A stretch of 64,000 nucleotides of DNA from assembly GCA_964439905.1 (NCBI GenBank), contig CAYTPK010000007.1, forward strand, positions 68,539 to 132,538, written 5' to 3'. The translations under genes and the position numbers were made by a program. The notes under the pieces were generated by a model that made no database searches, was not told the DNA's origin, and worked only from the letters and a program-made list of their open reading frames with translations. This DNA comes from an uncultured Dehalococcoidia bacterium (GTDB taxonomy: Bacteria > Chloroflexota > Dehalococcoidia > Lucifugimonadales > GCA-2712585). Shown one piece after another: positions 1 to 64,000 of this stretch; positions within the stretch are counted from its first letter, which is position 1, and every line of letters begins with the position of its first letter.

Positions 1-332
1 GTAAACCCTGGATCCATGTAAGACGCGTTTGTGTAACCCATTTTTAGGAGAGTCTGCCCTGCCAGGGCAGATCGACCGGTCCCGCCTCAATGGACGAATA
101 TCGTTTGGTCCTTATTTGGTATCATGTTCTCTACACGTCCTTCTATAAGCCCTCGTGACAATAGAGTTGCCTCTTCGATGTGTCCTTCAGTCCATTCACT
201 CGGCTCTCGCACGTCAAGAATAATGAAGTCCTCTTTTCGTTGTAGTTTTAAATAGACGGTTTCTATTGGAGTTGATGGTACCTCCGCCTGGGCTTCTTCT
301 ACCATCCTCTTTCCCACGTTTTCTTTATCCAT
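1..332 (-). CDS. Single-domain rhodanese-like sulfurtransferase with in-frame TGA at the catalytic Cys position (candidate selenocysteine); C-terminus runs off the left edge
   Basis: The tracked ORF 87..332 contains the rhodanese motif ILDVREPSEWTEGHIE. It ends ...QTIFVH at TGA (complement of 87..89). The same frame stays open for 28 more codons to position 1, reading GGTGRSALAGQTLLKMGYTNASYMDPGF. Together this gives H-[TGA]-GGTGRS, which matches the CX4R[ST] rhodanese active-site loop with TGA in place of Cys. Confidence 0.7.
53..71 (-). promoter_or_regulatory. SECIS-like stem-loop downstream of the in-frame TGA
   Basis: mRNA sense is UCUGCCC-UGGCA-GGGCAGA: a perfect 7-bp GC-rich stem with a 5-nt loop containing GG. 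It starts 15 nt after the UGA, so the loop begins 22 nt after it. That is where bacterial SECIS hairpins are expected. Confidence 0.5.
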
Positions 333-464
333 TTGACACCTCGGCCCTTTAACTGTCTAGACAAATAGCACAATGTTGGATCCGGGTCAATACTATAGGC
401 GGTCTTATGCGTTTTCGAGTCGTCCAATAATTGTTATACTATTTTCCTACAATCTAGATTAACC

Positions 465-53304: not shown

Positions 53305-55482
53305 TCAGATGCTTCTTGATACCAGCAAATCAGTCCTGTTCTTCCAACGGACCAAGAAACGCTTGAAGTTTTTTTTGCTGAGTTCGTCCCTATCCGCTTC
53401 GAGTAGACTTTCCCACTGTCTATGTGTGTGTCTTAACATTGGCAATGAGCCATCGGCTAGTATTTTATATCCGTGGTTTTTAATTTGGAAACTGAAATCA
53501 ATGTCTAGTATTCGGTAGAATCTGAAGCATTCTCTCATAAGACCAACCTTTAGCAGGATATCCCTCCTAAAGGCAAAACAATATCCCTGAAGAGCGTCGA
53601 TCTCTCCGAATTCAGCTTCCTCGTGAAAGTGGTTTAAATTTTCTGATAAAAGTCCCCACGTTCCTATTGCACCCACTCTTGTATCCTCCAGGTGTGTCTC
53701 AATTTTTCCTAGGACATCGCCTTCTAGTTCTACAGATGTGTCCAGCATCAAGATTATGCGGCCCAAACTTTGTTTTAGGCCTATGTTTTTTGCTTGTGCG
53801 TCGCCCAGTTGATGATCACAATGTATGACCCTGATGTCGGAGTGTGTCTTCTGCAACTCTGCCAATTTCTCAGACGTACCATCGGTAGAGCCATTATCGA
53901 CAACGATTATTTCCAAATTGTATCCAGGGCAACGGGACAGGATACTGTTAATGCATCGTTCTACGTCTCGATAGTAGTCGTTTGCAATCAAAATAAGCGA
54001 AAAACTTTTTGTTGAAGCATGCGATAGGAATGATTCTACCTCTCGAGAAGATGAAACAGTTGACCAGCTTTCTTCTCGACGTTCTAGGCCTGTCTTTTTG
54101 CGGAAATACGTACCCGCTGTGGTGTCTCTAACGAGTAGACCGCTTTCCGATAGATCTGCCCTAATTGCGTCAGAAGTTTTAAACCGTTTACTTTTCCTGA
54201 GATCCTGTCTCTTTGACAACTTTTCTTGTTTGTCTTTTGTCAATTTTTCGGTATGAACATATTTATTCAAGTTTAGACCTAAAAGTTCGTCGAAAGCTAA
54301 TAATAGTTGTAGTTTGGTGTGATCTGGGAGGTTCGATGATACGAGGGCCCAAACGATTCCAAGCCCTTGTGCTAGGTTTAAATCGTTGTTTGTAGCATCC
54401 CAGAACTTGGTTTCCCAGAGGGATGCCGATGGGGGGTTGGTTTGAGAAATGTGGGCAGTTTGGTTCCAATATGCTACTAGATCTCTCAAGCGAGTCAGTG
54501 CTTTTTGCGAGGCCTTAAGGGCCGAAAACGTAAAGTTGAGACGATTACGGTACTTTACAGTTAGACAAAGATAACGGAACGCTAAAGGATCGAACCCTCT
54601 AGATTCCAGATCGGATACTGTGAATTCATTCCCAGCTGATTTAGCCATTTTTACCCCGTCAGCTAAGAGATGTTGTCCGTGGATCCAATAATTTACGTAG
54701 GGTTTCCCGAATGCAGCTTCACTTTGCGCGACTTCGTCTTCGTGGTGAGGAAATATATTATCAACGCCACCGGTGTGGATGTCCTGCGCCGGCCCAATAT
54801 ATTTATTGGACATAGCTGAGCATTCTATGTGCCAGCCGGGGAAGCCGTATCCCCATGGGCTGTCCCACTTCATATCTCTTCCTGGTTCGGCCTTCTTCCA
54901 TAAAGCGAAGTCTCGCGGATCGTTTTTGTTTGGGTCGCCTTCTAAGAGAGTTATGGTCTGGGCTTCGTCTATGGATGTGTTACCAGATAGCTGACCGTAT
55001 TTATTAAACGCAGGAACGTTAAAGTAGACGTTACCATCTACTTCATACGCATGTCTTCGTTTGAGCAACTGTTGAATTATCTCGATAATCTCCGGGATAT
55101 GATCGGTTGCCCGAGGGAAATGGCTTGCTGGTAAAATATTTATTTTGGTCTCGTCTTTTAGGAAGGCCTGAGTGTAGTAATCAGCAATGTCTTTGGGGGT
55201 TTTTCCCTCTGCTAGGGCGGCAAGAACGACCTTATCCCCCCCAGTCTCTAGTTGCTCTTGTCGCATATGCCCAACATCGGTGATATTTTTTACGTGGGTA
55301 ACTTCAAAACCCTGTAGTGTCAGGGATCTACGGATCCAGTCCGCCATAAGATAAGACCTTAGGTTTCCGATATGGGCGTATCGATAAACGGTAGGTCCGC
55401 AAGTGTAGAGTCCTACAACCCCTTTGCCGATGGGTTGGAATAGCTCTACTTTCTTGTTAAGGGTATTATATATCCTCAGCAA
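53305..55482 (-). CDS. cysS: Cysteine--tRNA ligase fused to a C-terminal family-2 glycosyltransferase domain
   Basis: Residues ~20-485 form a complete CysRS. They include the HIGN (HIGH) and KMAKS (KMSKS) motifs, the zinc ligand contexts CGPT, HIEC and HHEDE, and the anticodon-binding and C-terminal DAIRADL...GTYF region. Residues ~511-744 are GT2-like (IIVVDNGSTDGT, LMLDTS). The frame is uninterrupted. Start placed at TTG 55482 with GGAGG 8 nt upstream. The tracked ORF begins at 55539. Confidence 0.9.
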   Translation of the reverse strand: MLRIYNTLNKKVELFQPIGKGVVGLYTCGPTVYRYAHIGNLRSYLMADWIRRSLTLQGFEVTHVKNITDVGHMRQEQLETGGDKVVLAALAEGKTPKDIADYYTQAFLKDETKINILPASHFPRATDHIPEIIEIIQQLLKRRHAYEVDGNVYFNVPAFNKYGQLSGNTSIDEAQTITLLEGDPNKNDPRDFALWKKAEPGRDMKWDSPWGYGFPGWHIECSAMSNKYIGPAQDIHTGGVDNIFPHHEDEVAQSEAAFGKPYVNYWIHGQHLLADGVKMAKSAGNEFTVSDLESRGFDPLAFRYLCLTVKYRNRLNFTFSALKASQKALTRLRDLVAYWNQTAHISQTNPPSASLWETKFWDATNNDLNLAQGLGIVWALVSSNLPDHTKLQLLLAFDELLGLNLNKYVHTEKLTKDKQEKLSKRQDLRKSKRFKTSDAIRADLSESGLLVRDTTAGTYFRKKTGLERREESWSTVSSSREVESFLSHASTKSFSLILIANDYYRDVERCINSILSRCPGYNLEIIVVDNGSTDGTSEKLAELQKTHSDIRVIHCDHQLGDAQAKNIGLKQSLGRIILMLDTSVELEGDVLGKIETHLEDTRVGAIGTWGLLSENLNHFHEEAEFGEIDALQGYCFAFRRDILLKVGLMRECFRFYRILDIDFSFQIKNHGYKILADGSLPMLRHTHRQWESLLEADRDELSKKNFKRFLVRWKNRTDLLVSRSI

Positions 55483-55627
55483 GGATAGGACCTCCAGTTC
55501 CAATAATAGAATTTTAACAAGGTTGCATGTTAATTGCACCTAGACCTATCGAGATGTCTTCTATGTTCACTGTTGACATAGATTAGAAATGGTCCATACA
55601 ATCCGGTAAGTTTTTTAGAGGTCGTTT

Positions 55628-56392: not shown

Positions 56393-56819
56393 GAGAGTCG
56401 AGTGGTCTGGGTGGCCGCCTTTGAACACTTCAATGTGATTCTAGGGAGGAAAGTCCGGGCTCCATTGGGCAGGGTGCTGGGTAACTCCCAGGATTTTAGC
56501 GATAAGCGCTAGAATACGGATAGTGACACAGAAACATACCGCCGTTACACTGCGGCAAGGGTGAAATCGCGAGGTAAGAGCTCACGGCTAGTAGTGGTGA
56601 CACACTAGTGGTTAAACCCCACCTGGAGCAAGGCCGAATAGAGGGATAATAGTAGCCCAAACTATCCCTGGGTTGGCTGCATGACCCCGATGGTAACATC
56701 GTTCTTGGATAACCAAGGACTTCGTTGAATTACGAATGGGCAAGATAGATGGTCACCGTCTTGGTTAGTTGTAATCTAATCAAGTTACAGAACCCGGCTT
56801 ATAGGTCCACTTGACTCTC
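56393..56819 (+). ncRNA. rnpB: RNase P RNA, bacterial type A
   Basis: Universal P4 strand GGAGGAAAGUCCGGGCUCC, then CAAGGGUGAAA...GGUAAGAGC and ACAGAACCCGGCUUAU. The 5' GAGAGUCGAGUGG pairs with the 3' CCACUUGACUCUC to form P1. Confidence 0.93.
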
Positions 56820-63295: not shown

Positions 63296-63390
63296 ACTCC
63301 TTGCAACTGATCTGAATTGAATATACGTTTTCCATTCATGCGGTATTTTTATCGCAGATGTTAAACCCAAAATAGATGGTAGAGGTCTTA

Positions 63391-64000
63391 ATGGATTTAT
63401 CGAAACTTGAACAAGAAATAACGAAATTTATCTCCAAGACACCCAAATCTAAGAGCCTTCAAGAAAGAGCCTCTCGCTTTATGCCGGGTGGCAGTTCTCG
63501 AGGCACTGCTTACTATGATCCATACCCGGCGTTTTTCGATCGAGGGCAAGGAAATCATATTTTCGATGTAGACGGTAACAAATATCTTGATTATATGATT
63601 AATGCCACCAGCCTCATTATGGGGCATGCTCATCCATTAATTGTAGATGCGATAAATTTACAGGCTGCGAAGGGCACAGCCTATAGTGGACCGTCAGAGA
63701 TCCAAATTGGTGTGGCCGAAATGTTGTGCGACCGAATCCCTTCAATGGATTCGGTCAGGTTTTGCAATTCTGGTACGGAAGCCACTCTTAATGCTATAAG
63801 GGCGGCTCGTGCTTTCACTGGAAGACATAAAATAGCGAAATTCGAGGGCGGGTATCATGGTTCTCATGAATATGTATCGGTAAGTGTAAGGCCTCCATCC
63901 TGGAAGCTAGACCCTAATGGGCCGACCTCTATCCCAGAATTTCCTGGACAGCCCCAATCGGTAAGTCGTGAGGTAATTGTCATGCCCTACAATGATCTCG
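63391..64000 (+). CDS. Class-III aminotransferase (glutamate-1-semialdehyde aminomutase-like), 3' end beyond window
   Basis: Not in the ORF track because no stop falls inside the window. My translation from ATG 63391 reads MDLSKLEQEI...RFMPGGSSRG...DVDGNKYLDYM...FCNSGTEATLNAIRAARAFTGR...KFEGGYHG. Confidence 0.88.
   Translation, partial: MDLSKLEQEITKFISKTPKSKSLQERASRFMPGGSSRGTAYYDPYPAFFDRGQGNHIFDVDGNKYLDYMINATSLIMGHAHPLIVDAINLQAAKGTAYSGPSEIQIGVAEMLCDRIPSMDSVRFCNSGTEATLNAIRAARAFTGRHKIAKFEGGYHGSHEYVSVSVRPPSWKLDPNGPTSIPEFPGQPQSVSREVIVMPYNDL

What the first reader, a model, noticed from the sequence alone, without database searches (positions are those of the whole stretch)
1..332. Rhodanese with TGA at the catalytic cysteine position plus a downstream hairpin: candidate selenoprotein
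The minus-strand rhodanese ORF stops at TGA (complement of 87..89) directly after ...TIFVH. The same frame then continues without a stop to the window edge, reading GGTGRSALAGQTLLKMGYTNASYMDPGF. Joined, the sequence is VH-[TGA]-GGTGRS. This is the rhodanese CX4R[S/T] active-site loop with the stop codon exactly where the catalytic Cys sits.

A perfect 7-bp GC-rich stem with loop UGGCA lies at 53..71, and its loop starts 22 nt after the UGA. That is where a bacterial SECIS element should be.

TGA also serves as an ordinary stop elsewhere in the window (alaS, fabF, the citE-like gene). A global codon reassignment is therefore unlikely, and site-specific recoding is the simplest reading.

From memory, Sec-containing rhodanese-type proteins have been predicted in marine metagenome selenoproteome surveys, so the family may not be new. 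Automated annotation would nonetheless truncate this gene or call it a pseudogene.
Basis: partly seen in the sequence, partly recalled or inferred. Interest (0 to 1): 0.75.

Follow-up and report, generated by a model that had tools for sequence, protein, structure and literature searches.

The report
Selenocysteine rhodanese in a marine Dehalococcoidia bacterium
A small sulfur-transfer enzyme gene in an uncultured ocean bacterium almost certainly uses the "stop" codon TGA to insert selenocysteine at its catalytic site; the evidence is strong, but this kind of selenoprotein was already predicted in ocean surveys, so it is a good example and not a discovery.

Summary
The minus-strand rhodanese ORF (332..87) stops at TGA (89..87), and the same frame stays open to the window edge. 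Public contigs supply the missing left flank and give a complete 127-aa single-domain rhodanese.

- **TGA conservation:** all 27 loci (14 distinct DNA versions, down to about 58% protein identity, two genomic contexts) carry TGA at this column.
- **Catalytic position:** Cys homologs, including the column of E. coli GlpE's only mid-chain Cys (residue 65), have Cys there.
- **Translation past TGA:** codons after TGA evolve under purifying selection (dN/dS 0.10-0.28).
- **Hairpin:** UCUGCCC-UGGCA-GGGCAGA (71..53, -12.3 kcal/mol) meets all four published bacterial SECIS criteria. Its seven codons never vary synonymously, while 39 of 40 other conserved codons do (p=1.3e-7). None of 80 Cys-form homologs has a hairpin this stable.
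- **Genetic code:** TGA is a normal stop for 14 of 49 long ORFs in the window.

The Sec machinery (selA, selB, selD, tRNA-Sec) could not be examined. The lineage is Dehalococcoidia, a class with very selenoprotein-rich MAGs. Sec-rhodaneses were predicted in 2005 and 2008, so this is a new member of a known kind.

The parts
87..332 (-). 5' part of the rhodanese gene: ATG (332..330) to His81 (92..90), plus the UGA codon (89..87)
   Evidence: Gene callers annotate exactly this 81-aa stub (P0001).
337..342 (-). Shine-Dalgarno-like GAGGTG, 4 nt upstream of the ATG
   Evidence: Read directly. This is inference only.
87..89 (-). In-frame UGA at the catalytic-Cys column of the CX4R[S/T] rhodanese loop; predicted Sec82
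   Evidence: TGA is present in all 27 loci and 14 distinct DNA versions. Cys occupies this column in P0142, P0157, P0006, GlpE (residue 65) and 6mxv.
90..92 (-). His codon CAT immediately 5' of UGA. It is the only degenerate codon outside the hairpin block that never varies.
   Evidence: 11 of 11 CAT. A possible context effect on UGA decoding is inference.
1..86 (-). Continuation of the coding sequence after UGA (residues 83-110, GGTGRSALAGQTLLKMGYTNASYMDPGF). The gene runs a further 52 nt beyond the left window edge, to TAA.
   Evidence: Searches give the full C-terminus from L001-L006. dN/dS after the TGA is 0.10-0.28. Codons +1 to +4 vary only synonymously.
53..71 (-). SECIS-like hairpin UCUGCCC-UGGCA-GGGCAGA (-12.3 kcal/mol); the loop starts 22 nt after UGA
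   Evidence: It meets all four bSECIS model constraints quoted in PMC13188914. It is rare by chance. No hairpin of comparable stability occurs in 80 Cys-form homologs. No T-run follows it, so it is not a terminator.
52..74 (-). 23-nt block CGA TCT GCC CTG GCA GGG CAG AC, invariant at nucleotide level in the 11 full-length versions scored codon by codon and unchanged in all 14 versions listed
   Evidence: 7 of 7 codons have no synonymous change, against 1 of 40 elsewhere (Fisher p=1.3e-7).

Best explanation
The gene encodes a 127-aa cytoplasmic single-domain rhodanese (GlpE/PspE/COG0607 type). Its catalytic cysteine is replaced by selenocysteine, encoded by UGA at 89..87.

**Proposed mechanism (inferred from the established bacterial pathway).** The hairpin 15 nt downstream of the UGA (71..53) would act as a bacterial SECIS. 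It would bind SelB-GTP-Sec-tRNA(Sec) and deliver it to the UGA in the ribosomal A site, in competition with RF2. Translation would then continue through GGTGRSALAGQ... to the TAA, 52 nt beyond the window edge.

**Proposed chemistry (inferred).** The selenolate of Sec82 sits at the end of the central beta-strand, at the start of the U-GGTG-R-S cradle loop. It would carry the transferred sulfane sulfur (or selenium) as a Se-S (or Se-Se) adduct, in place of the usual Cys persulfide.

**Shown here.** The TGA is conserved. The downstream frame is translated. Cys sits at this column in homologs. The hairpin conforms to the SECIS model and is selected at nucleotide level. The read-through product forms a complete rhodanese fold.

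**Not shown.** SelB-dependent Sec insertion, the presence of the Sec machinery in this genome, and the substrate.
For: - **TGA conserved:** it is present in 27 loci and 14 distinct DNA versions from many samples (Station ALOHA-type, Arctic and other marine metagenomes). Protein identity falls to about 58-62%, and there are two different gene neighbourhoods.
- **Complete C-terminus:** the read-through frame gives a full rhodanese C-terminus and a real stop at the expected length in every version.
- **Purifying selection after the TGA:** dN/dS is 0.10-0.28, against 0.05-0.15 before it. Codons +1 to +4 (GGN GGN ACN GGN) change only synonymously. No start codon lies between the TGA and codon +16.
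- **Catalytic Cys column:** shown by A2/A3, by PDB sequence hits 6mxv (E=2.5e-46), 1yt8, Sud 1qxn, PspE and GlpE, and by 598 Cys-form genomic homologs.
- **SECIS model (PMC13188914):** all four constraints are met. The loop is 3-9 nt, the stem 4-16 bp, and G lies in the first two loop positions. The loop UGGCA fits N1-G-[G|U]-N-N2 with U-A pairing.
- **Synonymous-site test:** 7 of 7 hairpin codons are invariant, against 1 of 40 elsewhere (p=1.3e-7).
- **Controls:** 6 of 80 Cys-forms have any model-conform hairpin at -7.5 or better; the best is -9.5 and the median -1.55. Only 0.18% of window TGAs reach -12.3.
- **Standard code:** TGA ends 14 of 49 long ORFs, including alaS, fabF, sucC and sucD.
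- **Fold:** the AF2 model (pLDDT 78) puts the recoded residue at the end of strand 49-52, before helix 56-68. Foldseek finds only rhodaneses.
- **Lineage:** a cluster mate of a window protein is labelled Dehalococcoidia bacterium. Two Dehalococcoidia MAGs are in the BSepDB top ten, with 49 and 46 selenoprotein genes.
- **Precedent:** Sec-rhodaneses are already predicted families.
Against: - No selA, selB, selD or tRNA-Sec was found in the 64-kb window or in the fetched flanks. The rest of the genome could not be searched.
- The hairpin is invariant, so there is no compensatory covariation. Its pairing is inferred from thermodynamics and nucleotide conservation only.
- No Rfam SECIS family matches.
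- No other selenoprotein candidate was seen in the window or flanks.
- No Sec-rhodanese has, to my knowledge, been confirmed experimentally.
Confidence: 0.86

Rival explanations
1. The UGA is read through, but not as Sec. Near-cognate or suppressor decoding (Trp, Cys, Gly or Arg) would be stimulated by the downstream hairpin, giving a full-length rhodanese without selenium.
For: - The data show translation past the TGA but not the identity of the inserted residue.
- The Sec machinery was not observed.
- One public gene call already reads the codon as Trp (P0003).
Against: - The recoded column is the catalytic Cys. Trp, Gly or Arg there would kill the enzyme, and Cys could simply be encoded by TGY, as it is in all distant homologs.
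- The hairpin matches the SelB-type SECIS model in loop sequence and spacing.
- The W in P0003 is a caller artefact: the DNA has TGA.
- The class includes very selenoprotein-rich genomes.
Confidence: 0.07
2. The TGA is a genuine stop. The gene is a truncated 81-aa remnant (pseudogene), and the downstream similarity to rhodanese is decaying sequence. The hairpin would be a terminator or fortuitous.
For: - All automated callers stop here.
- The 100-nt fold z-score is only -1.6.
Against: - The TGA and the downstream frame are kept intact in 14 distinct versions that have saturated synonymous divergence. dN/dS after the TGA is 0.10-0.28, there are no frameshifts or extra stops, and the true stop sits at the expected domain end.
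- The 81-aa product would lack the active-site loop and more than a third of the fold.
- No T-run follows the hairpin.
Confidence: 0.03
3. The lineage uses a reassigned genetic code in which TGA is a sense codon (code 4 or code 25 type).
For: P0003 was called with TGA=W on a 553-nt contig.
Against: - TGA terminates 14 of 49 long ORFs in the window. These include full-length AlaS, FabF, SucC and SucD with complete Pfam coverage.
- No other conserved in-frame TGA was found in the window or flanks.
Confidence: 0.01
4. The TGA is a sequencing or assembly error for TGC or TGT.
For: None.
Against: The identical TGA appears in independent assemblies from many samples and in diverged orthologs.
Confidence: 0

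Closest known systems
Predicted Sec-containing rhodanese-related sulfurtransferases. These are listed for the Sargasso Sea (3 sequences, COG2897; PMC1088965) and GOS ('Sulfurtransferase COG0607', cd01449, COG2897 and others; PMC2398784). Reviews list them as 'Rhodanese-like domain-containing protein forms 1, 2 and 4' (PF00581; PMC13188914, PMC9312934).
   Same: It is a marine bacterial protein with a PF00581/COG0607-type rhodanese domain. Sec is at the active-site Cys, a bacterial SECIS-like hairpin lies just downstream, and Cys homologs are far more abundant.
   Different: The loop here is U-GGTG-R-S, whereas the listed motif for forms 2 and 4 is UxxG; here the +3 residue is Thr. I could not obtain the reference sequences (MBM9537886.1, MCY3690685.1, AACY01016424), so identity with one of these forms is untested. 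The host here is a Dehalococcoidia lineage.
E. coli GlpE and PspE, Wolinella Sud, and Francisella rhodanese-like protein 6MXV (Cys-type single- or double-domain rhodaneses)
   Same: They share the fold, domain length and active-site geometry (strand, then Cys and cradle loop, then helix), and the CX4R[S/T]-like loop. The 6MXV domains are the best PDB match (E=2.5e-46).
   Different: They use Cys encoded by TGY and have no SECIS. GlpE is only about 28% identical.
NCBIfam NF041203 rhodanese_LYCAU (rhodanese form 3, CxU) and NF045694 TsoB (rhodanese/DsbD fusion selenoprotein)
   Same: Both are rhodanese-domain selenoproteins.
   Different: Scores are far below the curated cutoffs: 42.1 against 115, and 27 against 805. 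The Sec position, motif and architecture also differ. This protein is not a member of either.
E. coli fdhF-type bacterial SECIS and the bSECISearch consensus
   Same: It is a stem-loop inside the coding region just 3' of UGA, with a small apical loop containing GG and a spacing within 16-37 nt.
   Different: It has no sequence similarity to the fdhF element and no bulged U. SelB binding is untested, and no Rfam model matches.

Membership tests
Rhodanese homology domain (PF00581) | Profile match above the curated threshold, spanning the whole domain | tested here: met
   54.7 bits against a cutoff of 22.2, residues 28-110 of the window-limited product mapping to model positions 6-96 of 102, across the TGA.
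Rhodanese homology domain (PF00581) | Alpha/beta rhodanese fold, with the active-site residue at the end of the central strand followed by the cradle loop and a helix | tested here: met
   The AF2 model of ortholog P0003 has pLDDT 78 and pTM 0.71. The recoded residue 53 follows strand 49-52 and precedes helix 56-68. The top Foldseek PDB hits are almost all rhodaneses (TMq 0.6-0.76).
Catalytically active rhodanese (sulfurtransferase type) | Nucleophilic Cys in a six-residue CX4R[S/T]-type loop | tested here: met
   The column holding GlpE residue 65 (its conserved mid-chain Cys, which I identify from memory as the catalytic residue), the 6mxv Cys, and the Cys of P0142, P0157 and P0006 is the TGA column. 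The loop is U-GGTG-R-S. The feature is met with Sec replacing Cys. Enzymatic activity was not tested.
Bacterial selenoprotein (SelB/SECIS-dependent UGA recoding) | In-frame UGA conserved among orthologs and aligned with Cys in homologs | tested here: met
   14 distinct versions, all TGA; Cys homologs.
Bacterial selenoprotein (SelB/SECIS-dependent UGA recoding) | Sequence 3' of the UGA is translated in the same frame | tested here: met
   dN/dS 0.10-0.28; synonymous-only change at codons +1 to +4; complete C-terminus, stop at domain end.
Bacterial selenoprotein (SelB/SECIS-dependent UGA recoding) | bSECIS model: 3-9 nt loop, 4-16 bp stem, G in the first two loop positions, 16-37 nt spacing, MFE of -7.5 kcal/mol or lower | tested here: met
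   criteria; 7/8 bp, loop UGGCA/GGC, spacing 22/23 nt, -12.3 kcal/mol. Nucleotide-level selection is shown.
Bacterial selenoprotein (SelB/SECIS-dependent UGA recoding) | Base-pair covariation supporting the SECIS helix | tested here: inconclusive
   The hairpin is identical in all versions, so no pair varies. This says nothing for or against the pairing.
Bacterial selenoprotein (SelB/SECIS-dependent UGA recoding) | selA, selB, selD and tRNA-Sec present in the same genome | not testable with these tools
   They are absent from the 64-kb window and the fetched flanks. Only class-level support exists.
Bacterial selenoprotein (SelB/SECIS-dependent UGA recoding) | Selenium incorporated in the protein | not testable with these tools
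   This needs 75Se labelling or mass spectrometry.
NCBIfam NF041203 rhodanese_LYCAU (seleno)protein | HMM score above the curated cutoff (115 bits); CxU motif | tested here: not met
   42.1 bits. The motif here is H-U-GGTGRS.
NCBIfam NF045694 selenoprotein TsoB | HMM score above cutoff (805 bits); rhodanese/DsbD fusion with UxxxxU | tested here: not met
   27 bits. This is a single 127-aa domain with one UGA.
Rfam SECIS families | Covariance-model match | tested here: not met
   no SECIS family matched, even at E up to 10. My understanding, not checked here, is that Rfam's SECIS models cover only particular groups, so this does not argue against a bSECIS.

The most novel reading that the evidence does not exclude
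The 23-nt SECIS block is identical across orthologs that are only about 60% identical and sit in two unrelated gene neighbourhoods. This could reflect an unusually sequence-specific SelB-SECIS code in selenoprotein-rich marine Dehalococcoidia. The Sec-rhodanese could itself be a selenium-trafficking enzyme, a perselenide carrier feeding SelD, and not an ordinary sulfurtransferase. If so, the hairpin motif could be used to enumerate the whole selenoproteome of this abundant deep-ocean lineage.
Probability: 0.1. Interest if true: 0.55.

Novelty: new member of a known kind. Interest (0 to 1): 0.3.

Why it matters
- **Annotation.** This is a very clean, comparatively validated case of UGA-to-Sec recoding that every automated annotation gets wrong. 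Four ortholog clusters are called as 81-aa stubs, and one call reads the TGA as Trp. Correcting it restores an active-site-bearing enzyme.
- **Biology.** It adds a Sec-rhodanese to the selenoproteome of marine Dehalococcoidia.
- **Tool for further searches.** It supplies an invariant SECIS sequence that could seed searches for other selenoproteins in these abundant ocean bacteria.
- **Limit.** It does not change the understanding of Sec decoding or of rhodaneses, because Sec-rhodaneses were predicted from marine metagenomes in 2005 and 2008.

Tried and rejected
- **Genome-collection scan.** This was my error. The query alignment had Cys at the Sec position, so the search pattern ([HY]C[GK]...) could only retrieve Cys forms. 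The Sec machinery therefore could not be searched.
- **Metagenome pattern scan.** The pattern was TGA-GGN-GGN-NNN-GGN-MGN-WSN-GCN-YTN-GC. Of 120 hits, 114 were random matches in GC-rich DNA and 6 were real. No more distant Sec forms were obtained.
- **Exhaustive HMMER search with P0003.** The top 150 were dominated by multi-domain rhodanese repeats. Only P0142 and P0157 were informative.
- **Covariation analysis.** This was impossible because the hairpin is invariant.
- **Lower-stem extension.** The G-C and A-U pairs with a bulged C seen in the MFE fold are not conserved in L116, L169 and L206, so I rejected them.
- **Rfam.** No SECIS family matched.
- **Scans for other in-frame TGA genes.** These covered the window and the orthologous flanks. 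They found only off-frame noise. The MGMT gene has a normal PCHR Cys.
- **Sec machinery.** tRNA scans and Pfam scans of size-matched ORFs found nothing.
- **Terminator reading of the hairpin.** Rejected: there is no T-run.
- **Internal restart at ATG codon +16.** Rejected: codons +1 to +15 are conserved at the protein level.

Full report
**1. Observation**

On the minus strand an ORF runs from ATG 332..330 to His81 and stops at TGA 89..87. The same frame stays open to position 1 and reads GGTGRSALAGQTLLKMGYTNASYMDPGF.

A perfect hairpin lies at 71..53: stem TCTGCCC, loop TGGCA, stem GGGCAGA. Its loop starts 22 nt after the UGA. A GAGGTG Shine-Dalgarno-like motif lies 4 nt upstream of the ATG.

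**2. The missing left flank**

An exact look-up of the 81-aa product found 17 public contigs; six places from six different samples were shown (L001-L006). In all six the frame continues past the TGA to ...DPGFTGWREGGYPYTVPKSDT-TAA, which gives a 127-codon gene.

- The gene therefore ends 52 nt beyond the window edge.
- With Cys substituted for the UGA, the window-limited product matches Pfam Rhodanese across the TGA. The score is 54.7 bits against a cutoff of 22.2, and it covers model positions 6-96 of 102.
- The TGA is identical in all seven assemblies, so it is not a sequencing error.

**3. Orthologs**

A homology search returned four ortholog clusters that are all annotated as 81-aa stubs (P0001, P0002, P0004, P0005; 75-100% identity). 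It also returned one 97-aa call with Trp at the critical column (P0003) and one Cys-containing homolog (P0006).

- Fetching the DNA showed TGA at the same column in every one. That includes P0003, whose Trp is a caller artefact.
- A degenerate-pattern scan of metagenome contigs added six more loci (L116, L153, L166, L169, L206, L220).
- In total there are 27 loci and 14 distinct DNA versions. All carry TGA, all have an intact downstream frame, and all complete ones have a stop at the expected domain end.
- Identity to the window protein falls to 58-62%.
- The closer clade shares the neighbourhood DUF6657 | rhodanese | cyclophilin | O-methyltransferase | SDR.
- The more distant clade sits next to an aldo/keto reductase and a TauE/SafE-like membrane protein. 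The recoded gene has therefore been kept in different genomic contexts.

**4. The downstream region is translated**

Pairwise Nei-Gojobori estimates give dN/dS of 0.10-0.28 for the 43 codons after the TGA. The 50 codons before it give 0.05-0.15.

- The four codons directly after TGA (GGN GGN ACN GGN) vary at every third position but never change the amino acid.
- The first ATG after the TGA is at codon +16. An internal restart there cannot explain this conservation.

**5. The TGA sits at the catalytic Cys**

- The Cys-form homolog P0142 (122 aa; 55% identical to the ortholog P0003, 39% to the window protein) reads THCGGGGRSALA. P0157 and P0006 read YCGGGFRSALA and YCKSGGRSALA.
- 598 genomic relatives from many phyla carry Cys in the pattern [HY]C[GK][GS][TG][GF]RSAL.
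- E. coli GlpE was taken from the K-12 genome. Its conserved Cys at residue 65, which I recall from the literature as the catalytic residue, aligns to the TGA column.
- PDB sequence matches are all rhodaneses: 6mxv (E=2.5e-46), 1yt8, Sud 1qxn, PspE and GlpE. Cys sits opposite position 82.
- An AlphaFold2 model of the ortholog P0003 has pLDDT 78 and pTM 0.71. It places the recoded residue at the end of strand 49-52, followed by the loop and helix 56-68. Foldseek finds rhodanese domains with TM 0.6-0.76.
- A product truncated at residue 81 would lack the active-site loop and more than a third of the fold.

**6. The hairpin as a SECIS**

The published bacterial SECIS model (PMC13188914, Fig. 2 legend) sets four requirements.

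| Requirement | Model | This hairpin |
|---|---|---|
| Apical loop | 3-9 nt | UGGCA (5 nt), or GGC if the U-A closes |
| Upper stem | 4-16 bp | 7 or 8 bp |
| UGA-to-loop spacing | 16-37 nt | 22 or 23 nt |
| MFE | -7.5 kcal/mol or lower | -12.3 kcal/mol |

Three controls support the reading.

- **Background in the window.** Among 2,203 TGA triplets, 1.45% have any model-conform hairpin and 0.18% reach -12.3 kcal/mol.
- **Cys-form homologs.** Among 80 homologs that encode the same RSALA motif, 6 reach -7.5 kcal/mol. The best is -9.5 and the median is -1.55.
- **Synonymous sites.** In 11 full-length distinct versions, 39 of 40 amino-acid-conserved degenerate codons outside the hairpin show synonymous variation. 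All 7 codons spanning it (CGA TCT GCC CTG GCA GGG CAG) are invariant (Fisher p=1.3e-7).

The only other invariant degenerate codon is the CAT immediately 5' of UGA.

The RNA element is thus under strong nucleotide-level selection, on top of the protein constraint. Because it never varies, there is no covariation evidence, and the pairing itself remains inferred. No T-run follows the hairpin, so it is not an intrinsic terminator. No Rfam family matches.

**7. Genetic code**

TGA ends 14 of 49 long ORFs in the window. These include alaS, fabF, sucC, sucD and the HpcH/CitE-like gene, all with complete Pfam coverage. A reassigned code is excluded.

**8. Sec machinery and organism**

- No tRNA of any kind is found in the window or in 21 related loci.
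- Pfam scans and gene-call tables of the whole window show housekeeping genes and no selA, selB or selD.
- Scans for further conserved in-frame TGAs found none.
This is the main gap.
- A cluster mate at 90% identity or more of a window protein is MBD48439.1, labelled 'Dehalococcoidia bacterium'.
- The BSepDB paper lists two Dehalococcoidia MAGs with 49 and 46 selenoprotein genes among the ten richest bacteria (PMC13326102). The Sec trait therefore exists in this class, and one selenoprotein gene per 64 kb would be unremarkable there.
- The sample names suggest Station ALOHA-type and Arctic pelagic metagenomes. This is my reading of the names and is not verified.

**9. Mechanism**

The best-supported reading is SelB/SECIS-directed insertion of Sec at UGA 89..87, which gives a 127-aa GlpE/PspE-type rhodanese with a selenolate nucleophile in the loop U-GGTG-R-S.

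- **Shown:** recoding of some kind, the catalytic position, the SECIS-model hairpin under selection, and a complete fold.
- **Inferred:** Sec as the inserted residue, SelB dependence, and sulfur (or selenium) transfer through a Se-S or Se-Se adduct.
- The neighbourhood gives no specific pathway. The gene stands alone between a divergent DUF6657 gene and a convergent cyclophilin gene.

**10. Comparison with what is known**

- Sec-containing rhodanese-related sulfurtransferases were predicted from the Sargasso Sea (3 sequences, with a SECIS figure; PMC1088965).
- They were predicted again from GOS, as COG0607, cd01449 and COG2897 types (PMC2398784).
- Reviews now list five 'forms' (PMC13188914, PMC9312934).
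- This protein is a PF00581/COG0607-type member. It does not reach the cutoffs of the two curated NCBIfam rhodanese selenoprotein models: NF041203 scores 42 against 115, and TsoB scores 27 against 805.
- Its loop has Thr at +3, where the listed 'UxxG' motif of forms 2 and 4 has Gly. I could not fetch the reference sequences to decide whether it is the same form.

**11. Verdict**

It is a new, well-documented member of a known, computationally predicted selenoprotein kind. Interest is modest (0.3): the case is very clean and corrects a systematic mis-annotation, but a specialist would not be surprised.

Noticed in passing
window 53305..55539 (-): A single 744-aa ORF fuses a cysteinyl-tRNA synthetase catalytic domain (PF01406, aa 34-345; CysS_C, aa 438-480) to a C-terminal family-2 glycosyltransferase (PF00535, aa 522-643). 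This is an unusual CysRS-GT2 fusion. It is reminiscent of CysRS paralogs used in low-molecular-weight-thiol biosynthesis.
   Followed up: no
L001 10265..10337 (corresponds to window about 68..1 and beyond): L001 is identical to the window type except for a patch of about 75 nt directly after the TGA. That patch carries the seven substitutions typical of the P0002/L013 lineage. It is either a short recombination tract between co-occurring strains or an assembly chimera.
   Followed up: partly
L016 1..~45: The 553-nt ENA contig begins with a Nextera adaptor (TCGTCGGCAGCGTCAGATGTGTATAAGAGACAG). Its gene call translates the TGA as Trp, an artefact of the code-4-like call on a short contig.
   Followed up: yes
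window 90..92 (-): The His codon before the UGA is CAT in all 11 distinct versions. It is the only aa-conserved degenerate codon outside the hairpin with no synonymous change, which may reflect a codon-context requirement for UGA recoding.
   Followed up: partly
L001/L007 16150..20246 (left of the window): A multihaem cytochrome c, a 764-772-aa molybdopterin oxidoreductase, a 4Fe-4S protein and a large membrane-protein gene form an alternative-complex-III-like or polysulfide-reductase-like cluster about 6 kb from the rhodanese. No in-frame TGA was seen in it.
   Followed up: no
L166 1835..2566, L220 1719..2258: In the more distant Sec-rhodanese clade the gene lies near a TauE/SafE-like (sulfite-exporter family) membrane protein and an aldo/keto reductase. 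This is a different context from the window clade and only a weak hint of a sulfur-related role. The family names come from reading the ORF translations; no profile search was run.
   Followed up: no
window 56399..56817 (+): Bacterial RNase P RNA, class A (234 bits). It is the only Rfam match in the window. No tRNA genes occur anywhere in the 64 kb.
   Followed up: yes
window 63370..64000 (+): An ORF that reads like a class-III aminotransferase (MVEVLMDLSKLEQEI...GNHIFDVDGNKYLDY) starts here and runs off the right edge of the window. The ORF lister does not report it because it is open-ended. The family assignment is by eye only; no profile search was run.
   Followed up: no
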